This document shows positions 3,755 to 17,531 of a stretch of 33,909 nucleotides of DNA, piece by piece (within the stretch, counting starts at the first letter, position 1; each line of letters starts with the position of its first letter). The position numbers and the translations under genes are program-made. Location of the stretch: UHGV virus genome UHGV-1464012; one strand, written 5' to 3'. This DNA comes from a virus. The notes beneath the pieces were generated by a model that saw nothing but the letters and a program-made list of their open reading frames with translations, was not told where the DNA came from and ran no database searches.

Positions 3755-3955
3755 TCAGGCAGCCTTGTTATTCTGTTTACCAAGTTCTCTGGCAATCATT
3801 GCCGTCGTTCGTATTGCCCATTTATCGACATATTTCCCATCTTCCATTACAGGAAACATTTCTTCAGGCTTAACCATGCATTCCGATTGCAGCTTGCATC
3901 CATTGCATCGCTTGAATTGTCCACACCATTGATTTGTATCAATAGTCGTAGTCAT
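3755..3955 (-). CDS. small Cys-rich protein (66 aa), possible zinc-ribbon
   Basis: Cys pattern C-x4-C-x2-C-x5-C near the N-terminus. Confidence 0.4.
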   Translation of the reverse strand: MTTTIDTNQWCGQFKRCNGCKLQSECMVKPEEMFPVMEDGKYVDKWAIRTTAMIARELGKQNNKAA

Positions 3956-4134
3956 ACGGATAGTCCTGGTATTGTTCCATCACATCCTGAGGATGCTCTT
4001 CGAACTCTTCAAATTCTTCTTCCATATATCACCTCAAATAAGTGGTTTGCTGCCTAATTTCATTTTCTGGCGACCAACACAAGTTACACCCATTTCACTG
4101 CGTTGCTTGCGGTAGTAAATTATGTTTGTTCAGA

Positions 4135-4158
4135 CAATAAAAAACCCACCGAAGTGGG
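4135..4158 (-). terminator. putative rho-independent terminator (tL-like) downstream of gene 4159..4503
   Basis: CCCAC..GTGGG hairpin followed by a T-run on the minus strand, immediately after the stop codon. Confidence 0.45.
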
Positions 4159-4503
4159 CTATGACCATTTTTTATTTGGATTTCGTTGGTGAGCGTGATT
4201 AACAACTCTGTGCATTACATCCTCATATTTTTCATCTTCAATTTTTTCGACATCGCGAGGAAATGGTGTTGCTAATGCTTTGTCAACTTTGTCCATTGGG
4301 TCTTCATTAATCTTATATTCAGGACCATCATCTATAGCATTAAATCCAGGTGTTACACCGTTTTTTAATGCATATGCTATCCTTTTTTCCCATCTCGCTA
4401 TTCTCCTCCTGTCTCGAGATGTAAGACCTCTATCAGATACTTTTCTGTTTTGTCCGCGGTCAGGATTAACATAAATAGTCTTTTTCACCATAAGCATACT
4501 CAA
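4159..4503 (-). CDS. hypothetical protein (114 aa)
   Basis: ORF whose start overlaps the N stop by 4 nt; basic N-terminus, acidic C-terminus. Confidence 0.5.
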   Translation of the reverse strand: MSMLMVKKTIYVNPDRGQNRKVSDRGLTSRDRRRIARWEKRIAYALKNGVTPGFNAIDDGPEYKINEDPMDKVDKALATPFPRDVEKIEDEKYEDVMHRVVNHAHQRNPNKKWS

Positions 4504-11232: not shown

Positions 11233-11875
11233 TGGCAGCAAATACCGAAATATTTGGGTAGTTGGCGATCTGCACGGATGCTACACGAACCTGATGAACA
11301 AACTGGATACGATTGGATTCGACAACAAAAAAGACCTGCTTATCTCGGTGGGCGATTTGGTTGATCGTGGTGCAGAGAACGTTGAATGCCTGGAATTAAT
11401 CACATTCCCCTGGTTCAGAGCTGTACGTGGAAACCATGAGCAAATGATGAGTGATGGCTTATCAGAGCGTGGAAACGTTAATCACTGGCTGCTTAATGGC
11501 GGTGGCTGGTTCTTTAATCTCGATTACGACAAAGAAATTCTGGCTAAAGCTCTTGCCCATAAAGCAGATGAACTTCCGTTAATCATCGAACTGGTGAGCA
11601 AAGATAAAAAATATGTCATCTGCCACGCCGATTATCCTTGTGACGAATACGAGTTTGGAAAGCCAGTTGATCATCAGCAGGTAATCTGGAACCGCGAACG
11701 AATCAGCAACTCACAAGACGGGATCGTGAAAGAAATCAAAGGCGCGGACACGTTCATCTTTGGTCATACGCCAGCAGTGAAACCACTCAAGTTTGCCAAC
11801 CAGATGTATATCGATACCGGCGCAGTGTTCTGCGGAAACCTCACATTGATTCAGGTACAGGGAGAAGGCGCATGA
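11210..11875 (+). CDS. ninI: NinI Ser/Thr protein phosphatase (metallophosphoesterase)
   Basis: Internal start MRYYEKIDG...; metallophosphatase motifs GDLHG, GDLVDRG, GNHE. Confidence 0.85.
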
Positions 11876-12495
11876 GACTCGAAAGCGTAGCTAAATTTCA
11901 TTCGCCAAAAAGCCCGATGATGAGCGACTCACCACGGGCCACGGCTTCTGACTCTCTTTCCGGTACTGATGTGATGGCTGCTATGGGGATGGCGCAATCA
12001 CAAGCCGGATTCGGTATGGCTGCATTCTGCGGTAAGCACGAACTCAGCCAGAACGACAAACAAAAGGCTATCAACTATCTGATGCAATTTGCACACAAGG
12101 TATCGGGGAAATACCGTGGTGTGGCAAAGCTTGAAGGAAATACTAAGGCAAAGGTACTGCAAGTGCTCGCAACATTCGCTTATGCGGATTATTGCCGTAG
12201 TGCCGCGACGCCGGGCGCAAGATGCAGAGATTGCCACGGTACAGGCCGTGCGGTTGATATAGCCAAAACAGAGCAGTGGGGGAGAGTTGTTGAGAAAGAG
12301 TGCGGAAGATGCAAAGGCGTCGGCTATTCAAGGATGCCAGCAAGTGCCGCATATCGCGCTGTAACGATGCTAATCCCAAACCTTACTCAACCCACCTGGT
12401 CACGCACTGTTAAGCCACTGTATGACGCTCTGGTGGTGCAATGCCACAAGGAAGAGTCAATCGCAGACAACATTTTGAATTCAGTTACACGTTAA
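11872..12495 (+). CDS. Q: Q late-gene antiterminator (lambda Q-like)
   Basis: 207 aa with a zinc-binding Cys cluster (CRDCHGTG...CGRCKG); followed by the pR' promoter. Confidence 0.9.
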
Positions 12496-12928: not shown

Positions 12929-13252
12929 ATGAAGATGCCAGAAAAACATGACCTGTTAGCCGCCATTCTCGCGGCAAAGGAACAAGGCATCGGGGCAATC
13001 CTTGCGTTTGCAATGGCGTACCTTCGCGGCAGATATAATGGCGGTGCGTTTACAAAAACAGTAATCGACGCAACGATGTGCGCCATTATCGCCTGGTTCA
13101 TTCGTGACCTTCTCGACTTCGCCGGACTAAGTAGCAATCTCGCTTATATAACGAGCGTGTTCATCGGCTACATCGGTACTGACTCGATTGGTTCGCTTAT
13201 CAAACGCTTCGCTGCTAAAAAAGCCGGAGTAGAAGATGGTGGAAATCAATAA
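12929..13252 (+). CDS. S: holin S (class I; dual-start Met-Lys-Met as in lambda S107/S105)
   Basis: 107 aa with three transmembrane helices; begins [22 protein letters not shown]..., matching lambda S as I recall it. Confidence 0.9.
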
Positions 13253-13712
13253 TCAACGTAAGGCGTTCCTCGATATGCTGGCGTGGTCAGAGGGAACTGA
13301 TAACGGACGTCAGAAAACCAGAAATCATGGTTATGACGTCATTGTAGGAGGAGAGCTATTCACTGATTACTCCGATCACCCTCGCAAACTTGTCACGCTA
13401 AACCCAAAGCTCAAATCAACAGCCGCCGGACGTTACCAGCTTCTTTCACGTTGGTGGGATGCCTACCGCAAGCAACTTGGCCTGAAAGACTTCTCTCCCA
13501 AAAGCCAGGACGCAGTGGCATTGCAGCAGATTAAAGAGCGCGGCGCTTTACCGATGATTGATCGCGGTGATATTCGTCAGGCTATCGACCGTTGCAGCAA
13601 TATCTGGGCTTCACTGCCTGGCGCTGGTTATGGTCAGTTCGAGCATAAGGCTGACAGCCTGATTGCAAAATTCAAAGAAGCAGGCGGAACGGTCAGAGAG
13701 ATTGAGGTATGA
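13236..13712 (+). CDS. R: endolysin R (lytic transglycosylase, lambda R-like)
   Basis: 158 aa; sequence closely matches my recollection of lambda R; overlaps the S 3' end. Confidence 0.9.
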
Positions 13713-14185
13713 GCAGAGTCACCGCGATTATCTCCGCTCTGATTATCTGCATCGTCGTCTGTCTGTCATGGGCGGTCAATCATTACCGTGATAACGCCAT
13801 CGCCTACAAAGAACAGCGGGATAAAAAAGTCAGTGAGCTGAAGCAGGCGACCGCCACCATTACTGACATGCAGCAGCGCCAGCGTTCTGCTGATGCACTC
13901 GATGCTAAATACACGAAGGAGTTAGCTGATGCGAAAGCTGAAAATGATGCTCTTCTGCGGAAGCTTGATAATGGTGGCAGGGTGCTCGTCAAAGGAAAAT
14001 GCCCTGTGCCATCCTCAGCCGAAACCTCCAGCGCCTCCAGCGCCTCCAGCATGGGCAATGATGCCACCGTCGAACTCTCTCCAGTTGCTGGACGAAACGT
14101 TCTCGGTATCCGGGACGGAATTATCCGCGACCAAACAGCACTGAGAACGCTTCAGGAATATATCAGGACGCAATGCCTTCGATGA
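13709..14185 (+). CDS. Rz: Rz inner-membrane spanin
   Basis: N-terminal transmembrane helix then coiled coil; ATGA overlap with R. Confidence 0.85.
13929..14144 (+). CDS. Rz1: Rz1 outer-membrane lipoprotein spanin, embedded in Rz in the +1 frame
   Basis: Lipobox-like VAGC followed by a Pro-rich segment ([14 protein letters not shown]); the true start is probably an internal Met. Confidence 0.65.
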
Positions 14186-14358
14186 TAGCGATAATTTTAC
14201 TCATCATCCTTCACATCTGGCTCTGTAGACAGGGTGGTGATCACTTCTGGAGTGAATCCAGATTAAACATCTCATTGCTGATGCTTGATATTGAGCATCT
14301 GGCGCGCGGTAAGGGGCTGCGTTGAGATAAGAGTCAGTCATTACAAATACCAGGATTT

Positions 14359-14385
14359 AGCCTCGCATTCGCGGGGCTTTTTATT
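14359..14385 (+). terminator. putative rho-independent terminator after the lysis cassette
   Basis: 8-bp stem (AGCCUCGC/GCGGGGCU with one G-U pair) followed by TTTTATT. Confidence 0.4.
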
Positions 14386-14406
14386 CCCAACTCTATAGGT
14401 AATTTT

Positions 14407-14886
14407 ATGACCCAGCATATTGGCGTAAAGCTGATTAACGCCTTTCCGATGACGAGACAGGCATATAACGATTTTCGTGGCTGGCAGCTTCCTGCCGGAG
14501 AAAACGGCGAGGACGAAGGCTATCTGGTTGAATATCTGGATGGCGGAAAACCTAACACCGATCGCTTTGATGGCTACGTTAGCTGGAGTCCAAAAGAAGT
14601 ATTCGAAAAGGCTTATCGTCCGGTATCAGGGCTAAGTTTCGGCCTTGCCATGGAAGCGTTAAAACAGGGCAAAAGTTTGCAGCGGGCAGGATGGAATGGG
14701 AAAGACCAGTTTGTTTATCTCGTGAAAGGGGAAAAATTAGCGTCTGCGTTGGGTTATGGCTTTGGCGAATATGTTGGCGAGCCAACTTTCAATGACACGC
14801 TTGTATTGAAAAACTCACAGAACCGCCTTGCTACATGGGTTCCATCCATTGGCGACCTGATGGCTGAAGACTGGCAAATCATTTAA
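14407..14886 (+). CDS. DUF2829-like protein (Tad2-like candidate anti-defense nucleotide sponge) with an N-terminal extension
   Basis: The C-terminal half carries FGLAMEALKQGKSLQRAGWNGKDQFVYLV, which I recognise as the DUF2829 signature (AL-x-GK-x-V-x-R-x-GWNG). Confidence 0.5.
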   Translation: MTQHIGVKLINAFPMTRQAYNDFRGWQLPAGENGEDEGYLVEYLDGGKPNTDRFDGYVSWSPKEVFEKAYRPVSGLSFGLAMEALKQGKSLQRAGWNGKDQFVYLVKGEKLASALGYGFGEYVGEPTFNDTLVLKNSQNRLATWVPSIGDLMAEDWQII

Positions 14887-15108
14887 CCATGTAGGCATTA
14901 CAAAGCCTATCTACGGGTGGGCTTGATAATGAAACCGGAGTTAATTTCTGGTCACTAATTAACGGCAGTACAGCGAAACAACCCAAGCCAGTAAGTGGGG
15001 AAATAACACTGGCAGCCACTGAAAGATGAACCTCCAGCCTTATGGCAAAAAAGATTCTTTGTGGTGGCGGACTGATGGAAAGACATCCGCTGAATCGATG
15101 ATGAACAA

Positions 15109-15294
15109 GTGGAAGAGGTTGTGATGGTTTCCGTGAACAAAGATCCGAAGGAAGGCGTTGAATACATCACTGGTGCTGATGGTGTGAAAAGGCCAATGGC
15201 TTATTACAAAGCGGCCGAAGAGAGGGCAAGAATGGAAAATCCCCCTAAATGCGGATCATTTTTCGACATGCTGGACCTTCAATGGAAGTTGTGA
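15109..15294 (+). CDS. hypothetical small protein (61 aa or shorter)
   Basis: ORF followed by a terminator-like hairpin; start uncertain. Confidence 0.35.
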   Translation: MEEVVMVSVNKDPKEGVEYITGADGVKRPMAYYKAAEERARMENPPKCGSFFDMLDLQWKL

Positions 15295-15304
15295 ACAACT
15301 AACA

Positions 15305-15330
15305 GGTCGCTCAGGCGGCCTTTTTTATTG
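15305..15330 (+). terminator. putative rho-independent terminator
   Basis: GGUCGC-UCAG-GCGGCC hairpin followed by UUUUUUAUU. Confidence 0.4.
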
Positions 15331-15433
15331 CCATCACAAAAGCCATTCCTTACTGAGTGGCTTTGATAATGGCTTATACCCTACACGGGATAACTTAACT
15401 GATATCCCTTTTAACGGATAAACGGAGCCAACA

Positions 15434-15676
15434 ATGGCAGAGATTATTCCCATGACTGAAGAACAGAAATTCCAGTTAGAGATTTACAAACTGGTCATGA
15501 ACCAGAACGCAGCCGCAGAAGAAGCATTTCAATTCATTGGAACTGACGAGCTGAAGCTTGAACTATTCAAAATTCACTTCCAGTCAGGCGGCGCTAATTC
15601 GGATATCACGATCCGCACATTTGAAGCGGTGCGTAAATCGAAGGAAGCGTTAGACCTGTTCACTACCGGAGCATAA
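15434..15676 (+). CDS. hypothetical protein (80 aa) upstream of the terminase genes
   Basis: ORF with a 2-nt gap to the next gene. Confidence 0.45.
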   Translation: MAEIIPMTEEQKFQLEIYKLVMNQNAAAEEAFQFIGTDELKLELFKIHFQSGGANSDITIRTFEAVRKSKEALDLFTTGA

Positions 15677-15678
15677 AC

Positions 15679-16119
15679 ATGGCGCGCCCAACAAAGTATC
15701 AAGAGGCGTACGCCGAACAGGCACGCAAACTGTGCTTGCTGGGCTACACCGATGCAGAGCTTGCTGATTTCTTCGAAGTCAGTGAGTCAACTATTAACAA
15801 GTGGAAGCTTGATTATCCTGAGTTTTCGGAGTCCATAAAAAAGGGTAAGGCCGTCGCTGATGCAGAAGTTAGTGATCGTCTTTATCAACGCGCTATGGGC
15901 TTCGTGGCTCCAGATATCGATATTCGTGTTATTGAAAACAGAATTGTCGAAACTCCGCTTGAGAAGTATTACCCGCCTGATACAACCGCTGCCATTTTCT
16001 GGCTTAAGAACCGACAGAAGGATAAATGGCGCGACAAGGTTGATCACGAGCTAACAGGCAAAGACGGCGGCGCAATTCAGATTGAAACATCACCGATGAG
16101 CACTCTATTCGGAAAATGA
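15679..16119 (+). CDS. terminase small subunit (putative, HTH-containing)
   Basis: 146 aa directly upstream of and overlapping the large terminase gene; the N-terminal segment looks HTH-like. Confidence 0.55.
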   Translation: MARPTKYQEAYAEQARKLCLLGYTDAELADFFEVSESTINKWKLDYPEFSESIKKGKAVADAEVSDRLYQRAMGFVAPDIDIRVIENRIVETPLEKYYPPDTTAAIFWLKNRQKDKWRDKVDHELTGKDGGAIQIETSPMSTLFGK

Positions 16120-17531
16120 CCTCGATTAATCCTATCTTTGAACCGTTCATTGAGGCGCATCGCTACAAAGTTGCCAAAGGCGGTCGAGGTAGCGGTAAAT
16201 CATGGGCAATTGCGAGGCTGCTTGTTGAAGCGGCGCGTCGGCAGCCTGTGCGCATACTCTGCGCTCGTGAACTGCAAAACAGTATCAGCGATTCGGTAAT
16301 CCGGTTGCTTGAAGATACCATTGAGCGGGAAGGGTATTCGGCTGAGTTTGAAATTCAGCGTTCCATGATTCGTCATCTTGGAACGAATGCTGAATTCATG
16401 TTCTACGGCATCAAAAACAACCCGACGAAGATTAAATCGCTCGAAGGCATTGATATCTGCTGGGTGGAAGAAGCGGAAGCGGTAACGAAGGAATCATGGG
16501 ATATCCTGATACCAACCATCCGTAAGCCATTTTCCGAAATATGGGTGAGCTTTAACCCAAAGAACATCCTCGACGATACCTATCAGCGATTCGTCGTAAA
16601 TCCTCCCGATGATATTTGCCTGCTGACGGTGAACTACACCGACAACCCGCACTTTCCTGAAGTTCTCCGTCTGGAGATGGAAGAGTGCAAACGCAGAAAT
16701 CCGACACTGTATCGTCACATCTGGCTTGGTGAGCCAGTAAGCGCAAGTGATATGGCAATCATCAAACGTGAATGGCTTGAAGCCGCAACCGATGCGCACA
16801 AGAAACTCGGATGGAAAGCGAAAGGCGCGGTTGTTTCTGCGCATGACCCATCAGATACAGGGCCGGATGCCAAAGGTTATGCATCGCGTCACGGTTCGGT
16901 AGTTAAGCGTATTGCCGAAGGTCTGCTGATGGACATCAACGAGGGCGCTGACTGGGCTACTTCGCTGGCGATTGAAGACGGCGCTGACCATTACCTGTGG
17001 GATGGTGATGGTGTTGGTGCCGGGCTACGCAGACAGACAACGGAAGCGTTCTCCGGCAAGAAAATCACCGCCACGATGTTCAAGGGCAGTGAATCGCCAT
17101 TCGATGAAGATGCGCCGTATCAGGCCGGAGCATGGGCTGATGAAGTCGTACAGGGTGACAACGTTCGCACTATTGGCGATGTGTTCCGCAATAAGCGAGC
17201 ACAATTCTATTACGCGCTGGCTGACAGGCTGTATCTGACATATCGGGCGGTTGTTCACGGTGAGTATGCAGACCCAGACGACATGCTGAGTTTCGACAAA
17301 GAAGCGATAGGCGAGAAGATGCTGGAGAAGCTGTTTGCAGAACTGACGCAGATTCAGCGCAAATTCAATAACAACGGGAAGCTGGAGCTTATGACTAAGG
17401 TCGAAATGAAGCAGAAGCTCGGTATTCCATCTCCTAACCTGGCTGATGCGTTGATGATGTGTATGCATTGTCCGGAGTCGGCTGCGCAACCCGACTATTC
17501 CAGTTACTCAATTCCTTGTGGTGTAGGTTGA
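16116..17531 (+). CDS. terminase large subunit (ATPase/nuclease)
   Basis: 471 aa; Walker A GGRGSGKS near the N-terminus; position directly before the portal gene. Confidence 0.85.
   Translation: MTSINPIFEPFIEAHRYKVAKGGRGSGKSWAIARLLVEAARRQPVRILCARELQNSISDSVIRLLEDTIEREGYSAEFEIQRSMIRHLGTNAEFMFYGIKNNPTKIKSLEGIDICWVEEAEAVTKESWDILIPTIRKPFSEIWVSFNPKNILDDTYQRFVVNPPDDICLLTVNYTDNPHFPEVLRLEMEECKRRNPTLYRHIWLGEPVSASDMAIIKREWLEAATDAHKKLGWKAKGAVVSAHDPSDTGPDAKGYASRHGSVVKRIAEGLLMDINEGADWATSLAIEDGADHYLWDGDGVGAGLRRQTTEAFSGKKITATMFKGSESPFDEDAPYQAGAWADEVVQGDNVRTIGDVFRNKRAQFYYALADRLYLTYRAVVHGEYADPDDMLSFDKEAIGEKMLEKLFAELTQIQRKFNNNGKLELMTKVEMKQKLGIPSPNLADALMMCMHCPESAAQPDYSSYSIPCGVG

What the first reader, a model, noticed from the sequence alone, without database searches (positions are those of the whole stretch)
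14407..14886. DUF2829 (Tad2-like) gene between the lysis cassette and terminase: candidate anti-defense sponge
The C-terminal half carries FGLAMEALKQGKSLQRAGWNGKDQFVYLV, which matches the DUF2829 signature as I recall it. DUF2829 is the family of Tad2, a phage protein reported to sequester Thoeris signalling nucleotides. This protein is about twice the usual length, with an N-terminal extension of roughly 70 aa of unknown function. It is an inserted late gene, and a sponge needs high copy number, which late expression would provide.
Basis: partly seen in the sequence, partly recalled or inferred. Interest (0 to 1): 0.6.

Follow-up and report, generated by a model that had tools for sequence, protein, structure and literature searches.

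The report
Two-domain Tad2 anti-defence sponge gene
This late gene of a P22-like E. coli phage encodes a genuine relative of Tad2, a phage protein that soaks up bacterial alarm molecules. It is joined to an unnamed 70-residue front domain that turns up on five different families of such "sponge" proteins and whose job is unknown.

Summary
ORF 14407-14886 (+) encodes 159 aa. Residues 75-159 are a clear Tad2 domain: Pfam PF11195 E 6e-22, and 48% gapless identity to the solved SPO1 Tad2. All four main gcADPR-contact residues are conserved, and the AF2 model superposes on 8WJE/8SMF.

The gene fills a variable slot (14383-14951) just after the lysis-cassette terminator of a P22-like prophage. Relatives carry an Acb4 sponge, a GIY-YIG nuclease or Rha in the same Rz-to-DUF2560 interval.

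The most likely function is sequestration of TIR-made cADPR-type signals, giving Thoeris evasion. This rests on homology and was not tested.

The more interesting part is residues 1-74:
- They form a confidently folded small beta-barrel-like domain with no Pfam, NCBIfam or PDB match.
- The domain is more conserved than the Tad2 half.
- It is present in about 1,570 protein clusters.
- It occurs alone as ~73-aa phage genes.
- It is fused to Tad2, Sequestin, Acb4, Lockin and RyR-Tad sponges, including the N4 protein labelled gp49 in GenBank record EF056009.

The only experimental data come from a distant short-form homologue, RyR-Tad gp68. There the domain forms a domain-swapped dimer and shows no anti-type-I-Thoeris activity on its own.

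Verdict: a known family in an uncharacterised two-domain variant, of moderate interest.

The parts
14359..14378 (+). Terminator-like GC-rich hairpin followed by a T-run. It marks the end of the conserved lysis block and the left edge of the variable slot.
   Evidence: Pattern scan. The homologous sequence in phage epsilon34 is annotated as a Rho-independent terminator. Conserved flank homology with CUS-3 and epsilon34 ends at 14382.
14383..14951 (+). Variable slot 1 (moron-type cassette) of the Rz-to-DUF2560 interval. Here it holds the N-dom-Tad2 gene.
   Evidence: blastn against Kapi1, Huey, CUS-3 and epsilon34: flanks are 97-99% identical and the interior is replaced. epsilon34 has a GIY-YIG nuclease here, CUS-3 a 203-aa hypothetical protein, and other relatives Rha.
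14407..14886 (+). Coding sequence, 159 aa plus stop: a two-domain protein (N-dom + Tad2).
   Evidence: ORF list. phrog_872 matches the full length at E 1.9e-69. More than 100 full-length homologues exist at 54-99% identity. It is annotated 'DUF2829 domain-containing protein' in 45 of 5,426 complete E. coli genomes.
14407..14628 (+). N-terminal domain (aa 1-74), unnamed. It is a small beta-barrel-like fold (beta-beta-alpha-beta-beta-alpha) with motifs PMxRxxYNxFRGW, DEGYLVEYxDGGKxN and GYVSWSPKxVF.
   Evidence: AF2 pLDDT 96.3. No Pfam, NCBIfam or PDB sequence hit. 1,566 representative clusters match at E<=1e-3. It is fused to Tad2, Sequestin, Acb4, RyR and Lockin domains and also stands alone.
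14629..14883 (+). Tad2 (PF11195) sponge domain, aa 75-159.
   Evidence: Pfam E 6.4e-22. It is 41/85 identical and gapless against SPO1 Tad2. Foldseek TM 0.8-0.94 (normalised to the target) to 8WJE, 8SMF and 8SMG.
14692..14697 (+). Codons for W96-N97, equivalent to SPO1 Tad2 W25-N26 (ligand stacking and phosphate contacts).
   Evidence: Residue mapping onto contacts listed in 10.1101/2023.05.01.538930. Both are invariant in 35 homologues.
14836..14856 (+). Codons for W144, S147 and D150, equivalent to SPO1 W73, S76 and D79. G149 replaces SPO1 T78.
14670..14862 (+). Allelic segment inside the Tad2 domain (about aa 89-152, including the beta2-beta3 insertion). It is replaced in the near-identical phages Kapi1 and Huey, while the N-dom and the last codons stay 94-99% identical.
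   Evidence: blastn breakpoints and protein alignment.
15088..15353 (+). Variable slot 2: a 61-aa ORF at 15109-15294 (phrog_5425, unknown function) plus a terminator-like hairpin at 15304-15321. Phage Huey carries an Acb4 (PF13876) gene at this position.

Best explanation
The ORF encodes a two-domain phage counter-defence protein.

Shown:
- The C-terminal half (aa 75-159) is a close homologue of the structurally and functionally characterised Tad2 sponge of Bacillus phage SPO1.
- It has the same fold and the same short beta2-beta3 insertion.
- The four residues that make the main contacts to 1''-3' gcADPR (3'cADPR) are conserved.

Inferred:
- Like SPO1 Tad2, it assembles through helix alpha1 into a tetramer whose inter-protomer pockets bind TIR-produced cADPR-isomer signals. 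This would keep a Thoeris effector from being activated.
- It is transcribed as a promoter-proximal gene of the Q-antiterminated late operon, after the lysis genes and before the terminase and capsid genes. The sponge would therefore accumulate as structural proteins are made.

The N-terminal half (aa 1-74) is a separate, autonomously folding module that phages combine freely with at least five unrelated sponge families and also encode alone.

My best guess is that it acts as a self-associating (dimerising, possibly strand-swapped) module that organises or stabilises sponge oligomers. It may also carry a second, still unidentified binding activity. That second activity is suggested by a set of strongly conserved polar and aromatic residues specific to the long form found here.
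For: Tad2 half:
- PF11195 E 6.4e-22.
- SPO1 Tad2 E 3e-26, 48% identity over 85 aa with no gap.
- MoTad2 (9EIB) E 1.6e-18.
- The AF2 model (pLDDT 89.6) superposes on 8WJE/8SMF/8SMG with target-normalised TM 0.8-0.94.
- SPO1 contacts W25, N26, W73 and D79 correspond to W96, N97, W144 and D150. S76 corresponds to S147. All are invariant across 35 two-domain homologues.
- The insertion has the SPO1 length and sequence type, GFGEYxxEPxF.

Locus:
- The variable slot has sharp boundaries right after an intrinsic-terminator-like hairpin.
- The same Rz-to-DUF2560 interval carries Acb4-family sponges in Sf6 (gene 66) and Huey.

N-terminal half:
- AF2 pLDDT 96.3.
- 1,566 representative clusters.
- Architectures among the top 150: N-Tad2 46, N-Sequestin 19, N-Acb4 8, Acb4-N-Sequestin 7, N-RyR 1, N alone 10 (Pfam confirmation).
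- The N4 protein labelled gp49 in GenBank EF056009 has the same N-dom+Tad2 architecture, next to an Acb4 gene.
- It is homologous to the N-terminal domain of RyR-Tad gp68 (BLASTP E 7e-6, profile E 2e-7). A 2026 preprint reports that domain as a domain-swapped dimer that contributes to dimerisation.
- Two Lockin-table proteins carry it.
- Stand-alone genes occur in phage contigs away from recognised sponges.
- It is more conserved than the Tad2 half: mean pairwise identity 0.70 against 0.55.
- The same residues are conserved in fused and stand-alone forms.
Against: - No binding, oligomerisation or phage-rescue experiment exists for this protein or for any N-dom-Tad2 protein in the literature searched. 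None of the sequences held in Table S2 of 10.1101/2025.08.24.671296, which lists the 18 tested Tad2 homologues, carries the N-dom motifs.
- Secondary ligand contacts differ from SPO1: I63L, T65N, D67Q, H71A, T78G. Tad2 homologues are known to differ widely in ligand (3'cADPR, His-ADPR, N7-cADPR, cCMP/cUMP, cyclic dinucleotides). The exact signal is therefore uncertain.
- For the N-dom, a pure oligomerisation role fits poorly with its stand-alone genes and its very high surface-residue conservation.
- The domain is net acidic (8 K/R against 11 D/E), unlike the positively charged pockets of known sponges.
- gp68_N showed no activity against type I Thoeris. However, gp68 is a short-form variant that lacks the DGGKPN loop and the R17/Y20/R24/W26 set.
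- Late expression may be late for a sponge. In N4 the homologous gene lies outside the late structural-gene block, on the opposite strand from the virion RNA polymerase gene.
Confidence: 0.72

Rival explanations
1. The protein is a bifunctional inhibitor. The N-terminal domain is itself a new immune-evasion effector, either a nucleotide sponge for a signal not yet tested or a binder of a host defence protein. The fusion blocks two pathways at once, as shown for Acb4-Tad2 and Acb4-Sequestin fusions.
For: - The same 'fused to known sponges' logic led to the discovery of Sequestin. Because the N-dom is not in Pfam, that Pfam-based screen could not have detected it.
- It is fused to five sponge families and is frequently swapped between partners. 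The nearest N-dom neighbour has the same partner in only 37 of 83 cases.
- Stand-alone ~73-aa genes exist. One is in N4-like Erwinia phage phiEaP8 at the position N4 uses for its N-dom-Tad2 gene.
- Conserved aromatic and basic residues (K8, R17, Y20, R24, W26, Y39, Y43, Y57, W60) are of the kind that bind nucleotides.
- Multi-sponge fusions are experimentally validated.
Against: - gp68_N alone had no anti-type-I-Thoeris activity.
- The domain is net acidic.
- No ligand or partner is known.
Confidence: 0.3
2. The Tad2 domain is a sponge, but for a signal other than 3'cADPR. Candidates are His-ADPR (type II Thoeris), N7-cADPR (type IV Thoeris) or cyclic mononucleotides (Pycsar), matching whatever its enterobacterial hosts actually use.
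For: - Tad2 homologues inhibit CBASS, Pycsar and three Thoeris types, often several at once.
- The adenine-side and water-coordinating residues differ from SPO1.
- Closely related phages carry alleles with a replaced central segment of the Tad2 domain, suggesting diversifying specificity.
Against: - The domain is closer to SPO1 Tad2 (95 bits) than to the His-ADPR binder MoTad2 (70 bits).
- The core W/N/W/D residues are conserved.
- The insertion has the short SPO1 type. SPO1 Tad2 bound gcADPR only, and cyclic-dinucleotide binding was tied to 35-41-residue insertions.
Confidence: 0.3
3. It is an anti-CRISPR (AcrIIA7-like), as the homologue in phage Huey is annotated.
For: The GenBank annotation of Huey CDS0064 reads 'anti-CRISPR protein'. 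AcrIIA7 (8KBI, 9KZR) is a DUF2829 protein and matches weakly at E 4e-6 to 2e-5.
Against: Li et al. could not reproduce any Cas9 inhibition by HgmTad2/AcrIIA7 or other Tad2 homologues, in vitro or in vivo. Yirmiya et al. argue that the family is anti-Thoeris. From general knowledge, not tested here, E. coli carries type I CRISPR systems rather than type II-A, so a Cas9 inhibitor would have no evident target in this host.
Confidence: 0.03
4. The N-terminal domain targets a host protein such as RNA polymerase, and the protein is a regulator rather than (only) a sponge.
Confidence: 0.05

Closest known systems
Tad2 of Bacillus phage SPO1 (gp34.65; PDB 8SME/8SMF/8SMG/8WJE)
   Same: Same Pfam family. 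48% identity over 85 aa without gaps. Same fold and the same short beta2-beta3 insertion. W25/N26/W73/D79/S76 equivalents are conserved.
   Different: SPO1 Tad2 is a single-domain 89-aa protein, whereas this one has a 74-aa extra N-terminal domain. Five secondary contact positions differ. The host is a different phylum, and the gene sits in the late operon of a temperate P22-like phage.
Phage N4 protein labelled 'gp49' in GenBank EF056009, and N4-like homologues
   Same: Identical architecture: long-form N-dom plus Tad2, 160 aa, 49% identity over the full length. It lies next to an Acb4 sponge gene, as in phage Huey.
   Different: It sits in a different genomic setting, the N4 'anti-signalling hot spot' upstream of the virion RNA polymerase gene. 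Its Tad2 insertion is different. It is also uncharacterised in the literature searched.
RyR-Tad gp68 of Pectobacterium phage vB_PatP_CB1 (bioRxiv 10.64898/2026.06.04.730250)
   Same: It has a homologous N-terminal domain (34% identity, E 7e-6) placed in front of a gcADPR-binding sponge domain. It is the only member with structural and functional data on the N-dom.
   Different: Its C-terminal sponge is a RyR-repeat all-alpha domain, not Tad2. Its N-dom is the short form, lacking the DGGKPN loop and the R17/Y20/R24/W26 residues.
Sponge-sponge fusions (Acb4-Tad2 of Pasteurella phage Pm86; Acb4-Sequestin of Pseudomonas phage Ab09; Tad2-Sequestin)
   Same: They follow the same modular principle of small anti-signalling domains strung into one polypeptide. 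The N-dom occurs inside such strings, for example Acb4-N-Sequestin and N-Tad2-Sequestin.
   Different: In those fusions every domain is a demonstrated sponge. The N-dom has no demonstrated ligand.
HgmTad2/AcrIIA7 and SptTad2 (cyclic-dinucleotide-binding Tad2 proteins)
   Same: Same family and the same gcADPR pocket.
   Different: They have a 35-41-residue insertion that forms the cyclic-dinucleotide pocket. This protein has the short SPO1-type insertion, and identity is only about 25%.
DUF1653 (PDB 3BE3)
   Different: 7% identity, and a profile-sequence comparison finds nothing. The resemblance is at fold level only, and DUF1653 function is unknown.

Membership tests
Tad2 / PF11195 (DUF2829) sponge family | Significant match to the family profile above the curated threshold | tested here: met
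   78.3 bits against a cut-off of 25, E 6.4e-22, aa 77-159 covering profile positions 2-73 of 73.
Tad2 / PF11195 (DUF2829) sponge family | Homology to an experimentally validated member | tested here: met
   SPO1 Tad2 E 3e-26, 41/85 identical, gapless. MoTad2 E 1.6e-18.
Tad2 / PF11195 (DUF2829) sponge family | [quoted passage not shown] | tested here: met
   The AF2 model has H78-86, four strands and helices 108-115 and 148-152. Foldseek against 8WJE/8SMF/8SMG gives target-normalised TM 0.8-0.94.
Tad2 / PF11195 (DUF2829) sponge family | Principal gcADPR contacts W25, N26, W73, D79 (SPO1 numbering) | tested here: met
   W96, N97, W144 and D150 are present, and invariant in 35 homologues.
Tad2 / PF11195 (DUF2829) sponge family | Secondary adenine and water contacts I63, T65, D67, H71, S76, T78 | tested here: inconclusive
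   Only S76 is kept. The others are L, N, Q, A and G. These positions vary in the family, so ligand identity stays open.
Tad2 / PF11195 (DUF2829) sponge family | Homotetramer with two inter-protomer pockets | not testable with these tools
   Only monomer prediction was available.
Tad2 / PF11195 (DUF2829) sponge family | Binds and sequesters a TIR-derived signal; rescues phage from Thoeris | not testable with these tools
   This needs biochemistry and plaque assays.
Cyclic-dinucleotide-binding Tad2 subgroup (HgmTad2/SptTad2) | Long (35-41 aa) insertion between beta2 and the next core strand that forms the cyclic-dinucleotide pocket | tested here: not met
   The insertion has the same length as in SPO1 Tad2 (gapless alignment).
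AcrIIA7-type anti-CRISPR | Inhibits Cas9 | not testable with these tools
   Only annotation by homology supports it. The literature reports no Acr activity for HgmTad2.
Unnamed N-terminal domain family (RyR-Tad gp68_N, N-terminal domain of the N4 protein labelled gp49 in GenBank EF056009, stand-alone ~73-aa phage proteins) | Sequence homology across the domain, with core motifs K-x3-A-x-PM, EGYLV-Y and SWSP-x2-F | tested here: met
   phmmer finds 1,566 clusters. The N4 match covers aa 2-73 at 54% identity. gp68 gives E 7e-6 pairwise and 2e-7 with the profile.
Unnamed N-terminal domain family (RyR-Tad gp68_N, N-terminal domain of the N4 protein labelled gp49 in GenBank EF056009, stand-alone ~73-aa phage proteins) | Domain-swapped dimer (beta1 exchanged), as in the gp68 crystal structure | not testable with these tools
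   Reported. The monomer AF2 model shows the same strand and helix order but cannot show swapping.
DUF1653 (PF07866) | Profile-level sequence similarity | tested here: not met

The most novel reading that the evidence does not exclude
The 74-residue N-terminal domain is a new, unnamed immune-evasion module with a function of its own. It would be either a further family of signal sponge (or inhibitor of a defence protein) that escaped Pfam-based fusion screens, or a universal helper domain for sponges. Phages attach it to Tad2, Acb4, Sequestin, Lockin and RyR-Tad, and also deploy it alone.
Probability: 0.4. Interest if true: 0.75.

Novelty: new variant of a known kind. Interest (0 to 1): 0.5.

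Why it matters
The Tad2 half adds little, because the family, mechanism and wide distribution are already published.

The value lies in the N-terminal module:
- It is very common (about 1,570 clusters at 50% identity) and strongly conserved.
- It is absent from Pfam, NCBIfam and, as of April 2026, the PDB.
- It is the shared partner of five otherwise unrelated sponge families.

If it has its own activity, it is a large uncharted family of phage counter-defence proteins and could point to an immune signal or host target not yet known. If it is an assembly module, it would explain how phages build multi-sponge proteins and would be a useful genomic marker for finding new sponges fused to it. 24 of the top 150 architectures have an unassigned partner region.

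The locus also marks the Rz-to-terminase interval of P22-like phages as an anti-signalling hot spot. Inside the Tad2 domain, an allelic segment is swapped between near-identical phages, which suggests ongoing specificity change.

Tried and rejected
- Pfam, NCBIfam and PDB sequence searches of aa 1-74, as a single sequence and as a 58-sequence profile, found nothing.
- The DUF1653 lead was tested by hhalign and was not supported.
- Foldseek against BFVD returned only members of the same sequence family.
- The afdb50 library was unavailable.
- I checked whether any experimentally tested Tad2 homologue carried the N-dom. None of the sequences held in Table S2 of 10.1101/2025.08.24.671296 does.
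- I looked for a recurrent sixth partner among the unassigned regions fused to the N-dom. They are essentially singletons.
- I considered the anti-CRISPR annotation and rejected it on published evidence.
- I considered a regulator role from the phrog_643 label and rejected it as an annotation artefact, because it falls on the Tad2 domain.
- I looked for a sigma-70-like promoter of the gene's own between the terminator and the ATG and found none on the + strand.
- No tRNA genes are present in the window.

Full report
**Observation.** The window is a P22-like (Lederbergvirus) phage or prophage. Its nearest record is Escherichia phage HZ41 (98.9% over the region), followed by Kapi1, IME10 and Huey. 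On the + strand the gene order is Q (11872-12495), holin (12929-13252), endolysin (13236-13712) and Rz (13709-14185). Then come a 50-aa Sf6-gene-65 homologue (14173-14325) and the ORF in question (14407-14886, 159 aa). After it lie a 61-aa ORF (15109-15294), DUF2560 (15434-15676), small terminase (15679-16119), large terminase (16116-17531), portal and the rest of the structural genes.

**The C-terminal half is a bona fide Tad2 domain.**
- Pfam PF11195 (Tad2-like, formerly DUF2829) matches aa 77-159 at E 6.4e-22.
- Against PDB sequences the best hit is SPO1 Tad2 (gp34.65; 8SME, 8WJE) at E 3e-26. It is 41/85 identical with no gap.
- The next hits are Myroides MoTad2 (1.6e-18) and, more distantly, HgmTad2/AcrIIA7 and SptTad2.
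- An AlphaFold2 model built on 35 full-length homologues (pLDDT 89.6) superposes on the SPO1 Tad2 crystal structures. The target-normalised TM-score is 0.8-0.94.
- Yirmiya et al. list W25, N26, W73 and D79 as the main contacts to 1''-3' gcADPR. They list T78, I63 and T65 as adenine contacts, and N26, D67, H71, W73 and S76 as water coordinators.
- Mapping with an offset of +71 gives W96, N97, W144, D150 and S147 conserved. All of these are invariant in 35 homologues. The other positions change: I63L, T65N, D67Q, H71A and T78G.
- The beta2-beta3 insertion has the length and sequence type of SPO1 Tad2 (GFGEYxxEPxF). It is not the 35-41-residue insertion that builds the cyclic-dinucleotide pocket of HgmTad2/SptTad2.

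The best-supported function is therefore sequestration of TIR-made cADPR-isomer signals, most likely 3'cADPR or 2'cADPR. Because Tad2 homologues vary widely in specificity, the exact ligand is uncertain.

**The locus is a variable, insertion-type slot of the late operon.** blastn against CUS-3 and epsilon34 shows 98% identity up to window position 14382. That is just past a GC-rich hairpin plus T-run at 14359-14378, which is annotated as a Rho-independent terminator in epsilon34. Identity resumes at 14952. The 569 bp in between hold only this gene.
- In the same slot epsilon34 has a GIY-YIG nuclease, CUS-3 has a 203-aa hypothetical protein, and other relatives have Rha.
- A second small slot (15088-15353) holds a 61-aa ORF of unknown function. 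Phage Huey has an Acb4-family (PF13876) gene at that position.
- Sf6 gene 66, one of the two proteins after which PF13876 is named, lies in the same Rz-to-DUF2560 interval.

This interval therefore acts as an anti-signalling hot spot in P22-like phages. No sigma-70-like promoter lies between the terminator and the ATG. Expression is probably by Q-antiterminated late transcription, ahead of the terminase and capsid genes; this is an inference. The gene occurs in 45 of 5,426 complete E. coli genomes, always on the chromosome, and is annotated 'DUF2829 domain-containing protein'.

**The N-terminal half is a distinct, widespread and unnamed domain.** Residues 1-74 have no Pfam, NCBIfam or PDB sequence match, even with a 58-sequence profile. 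Modelled alone they fold with pLDDT 96.3 into a beta-beta-alpha-beta-beta-alpha unit.
- The DUF1653 lead is not supported by hhalign.
- An exhaustive phmmer search finds the domain in 1,566 representative clusters, 838 of them at E<=1e-10.
- Among the best 150 representatives the architectures are N-Tad2 (46), N-Sequestin (19), N-Acb4 (8), Acb4-N-Sequestin (7), Acb4-N (3), N-Tad2-Sequestin, N-Sequestin-Tad2, N-RyR (1), N alone (10) and N plus an unassigned region (24).
- Pfam scanning of 68 members independently gives PF21825 (24), PF11195 (23) and PF13876 (18).
- PF21825 is the Sequestin sponge and PF13876 is the Acb4 sponge.
- tblastn finds the domain in 137 phage records. One is the N4 protein labelled gp49 in GenBank EF056009, which has the same N-dom+Tad2 architecture and sits next to an Acb4 gene.
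- The other records include crAss-like, Vibrio, Pseudomonas, Klebsiella, Acinetobacter and Clostridium phages.
- Stand-alone ~73-aa genes are real. One lies in N4-like Erwinia phage phiEaP8 at the N4 position. Others lie in metagenomic phage contigs, between ribonucleotide reductase and glutaredoxin or just after an endolysin, with no recognised sponge nearby.
- The domain is homologous to the N-terminal domain of RyR-Tad gp68 of Pectobacterium phage CB1 (BLASTP E 7e-6; profile E 2e-7).
- It is also present in two proteins of the published Lockin table and in at least about 90 of the published Sequestin homologues.

It is thus the common partner of five unrelated sponge families. It swaps partners often: the nearest N-dom neighbour has the same partner in only 37 of 83 cases. 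It is also more conserved than the Tad2 half, with mean pairwise identity 0.70 against 0.55. The same polar and aromatic residues are kept in fused and stand-alone forms.

**What the N-dom may do.** The only experimental data come from the June 2026 preprint on RyR-Tad. [quoted passage not shown] It forms a domain-swapped dimer (beta1 exchanged) and contributes to dimerisation. gp68_N alone had no activity against type I Thoeris.

This favours a self-association or scaffold role. Three points keep an independent activity open:
- Stand-alone genes exist.
- Conservation is very high.
- gp68 is a short-form variant. It lacks the DGGKPN loop and the R17/Y20/N21/R24/W26 set that is nearly invariant in the long form found here.

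Against a classical sponge, the domain is net acidic, whereas known sponges have positively charged pockets. I therefore put the assembly-module reading first. A second, independent immune-evasion activity is a serious rival, at about 0.3-0.4.

**An additional feature.** Kapi1 and Huey share the N-dom and the last codons of the gene at 94-99% nucleotide identity. They carry a different sequence for aa ~89-152 of the Tad2 domain, with longer, cysteine-containing insertions. This looks like allelic cassette exchange within the ligand-binding half. It is consistent with shifting specificity, but that was not tested.

**Comparison with what is known, and novelty.** As a Tad2-family member the protein passes every membership test that could be run: profile, homology to a validated member, fold and principal contact residues. 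Oligomeric state and binding could not be tested. It is not a member of the cyclic-dinucleotide-binding long-insertion subgroup. The 'anti-CRISPR' label on homologues is not credible in view of published negative data.

The two-domain form has not been characterised in the literature searched. None of the sequences held in Table S2 of 10.1101/2025.08.24.671296, which lists the 18 tested Tad2 homologues, carries the N-dom motifs. The pan-sponge distribution of the N-dom is not described in any paper retrieved. I rate it a new variant of a known kind. The Tad2 part is ordinary. The N-terminal module is the part worth following up.

Noticed in passing
window 15088-15353: A second small variable slot holds a 61-aa ORF (15109-15294; phrog_5425, no Pfam) followed by a terminator-like hairpin (15304-15321). 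Phage Huey carries an Acb4-family sponge gene at exactly this position, and Kapi1, CUS-3 and epsilon34 have almost nothing there. The 61-aa ORF is an untested anti-defence candidate.
   Followed up: partly
window 14670-14862 (aa ~89-152 of the ORF): Phages Kapi1 and Huey are 94-99% identical to the window on both sides of this segment but carry unrelated sequence within it. Their beta2-beta3 insertions in the Tad2 domain are longer and contain cysteines. This is allelic exchange inside the ligand-binding domain, while the N-terminal domain stays identical.
   Followed up: partly
L016 (Sf6) 2118-2498; L002 (Huey) 3843-4223; window 14186-15433: The Rz-to-DUF2560 interval of P22-like phages alternately carries Acb4-family genes (Sf6 gene 66, Huey), N-dom-Tad2, a GIY-YIG nuclease (epsilon34), Rha or unknown genes. 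It behaves as an anti-signalling or moron hot spot.
   Followed up: partly
L004 (phage N4, EF056009) 2109-2962: In this GenBank record the protein labelled gp48 is the PF13876 (Acb4) protein. The protein labelled gp49 is N-dom+Tad2, so the Pfam name 'N4 Gp49' does not match this record's numbering. N4 thus encodes an uncharacterised two-domain Tad2 next to its studied Acb4.
   Followed up: yes
Tables S1 and S4 of 10.1101/2025.07.12.664507; hmmsearch: The N-terminal domain is also found in front of Lockin sponge domains (two proteins, profile E about 1e-7). It is in about 90 or more of the published Sequestin homologues, although it is not mentioned in the text sections of that paper that I read.
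   Followed up: yes
alignment A4; P0112, P0114, P0120; L003 12143-12694: The N-terminal domain exists in a long form and a short form. The long form has a conserved DGGKPN loop and the R17/Y20/R24/W26 residues, and is found here and in N4. The short form lacks them and is found in RyR-Tad gp68, the Lockin fusions and some stand-alone proteins. The only experimental data are for the short form.
   Followed up: partly
window 14173-14325: A 50-aa ORF overlaps the end of Rz (phrog_11822; homologue of Sf6 gene 65). In Kapi1 it is annotated with a signal peptide. It is conserved across P22-like phages, and its function is unknown.
   Followed up: no
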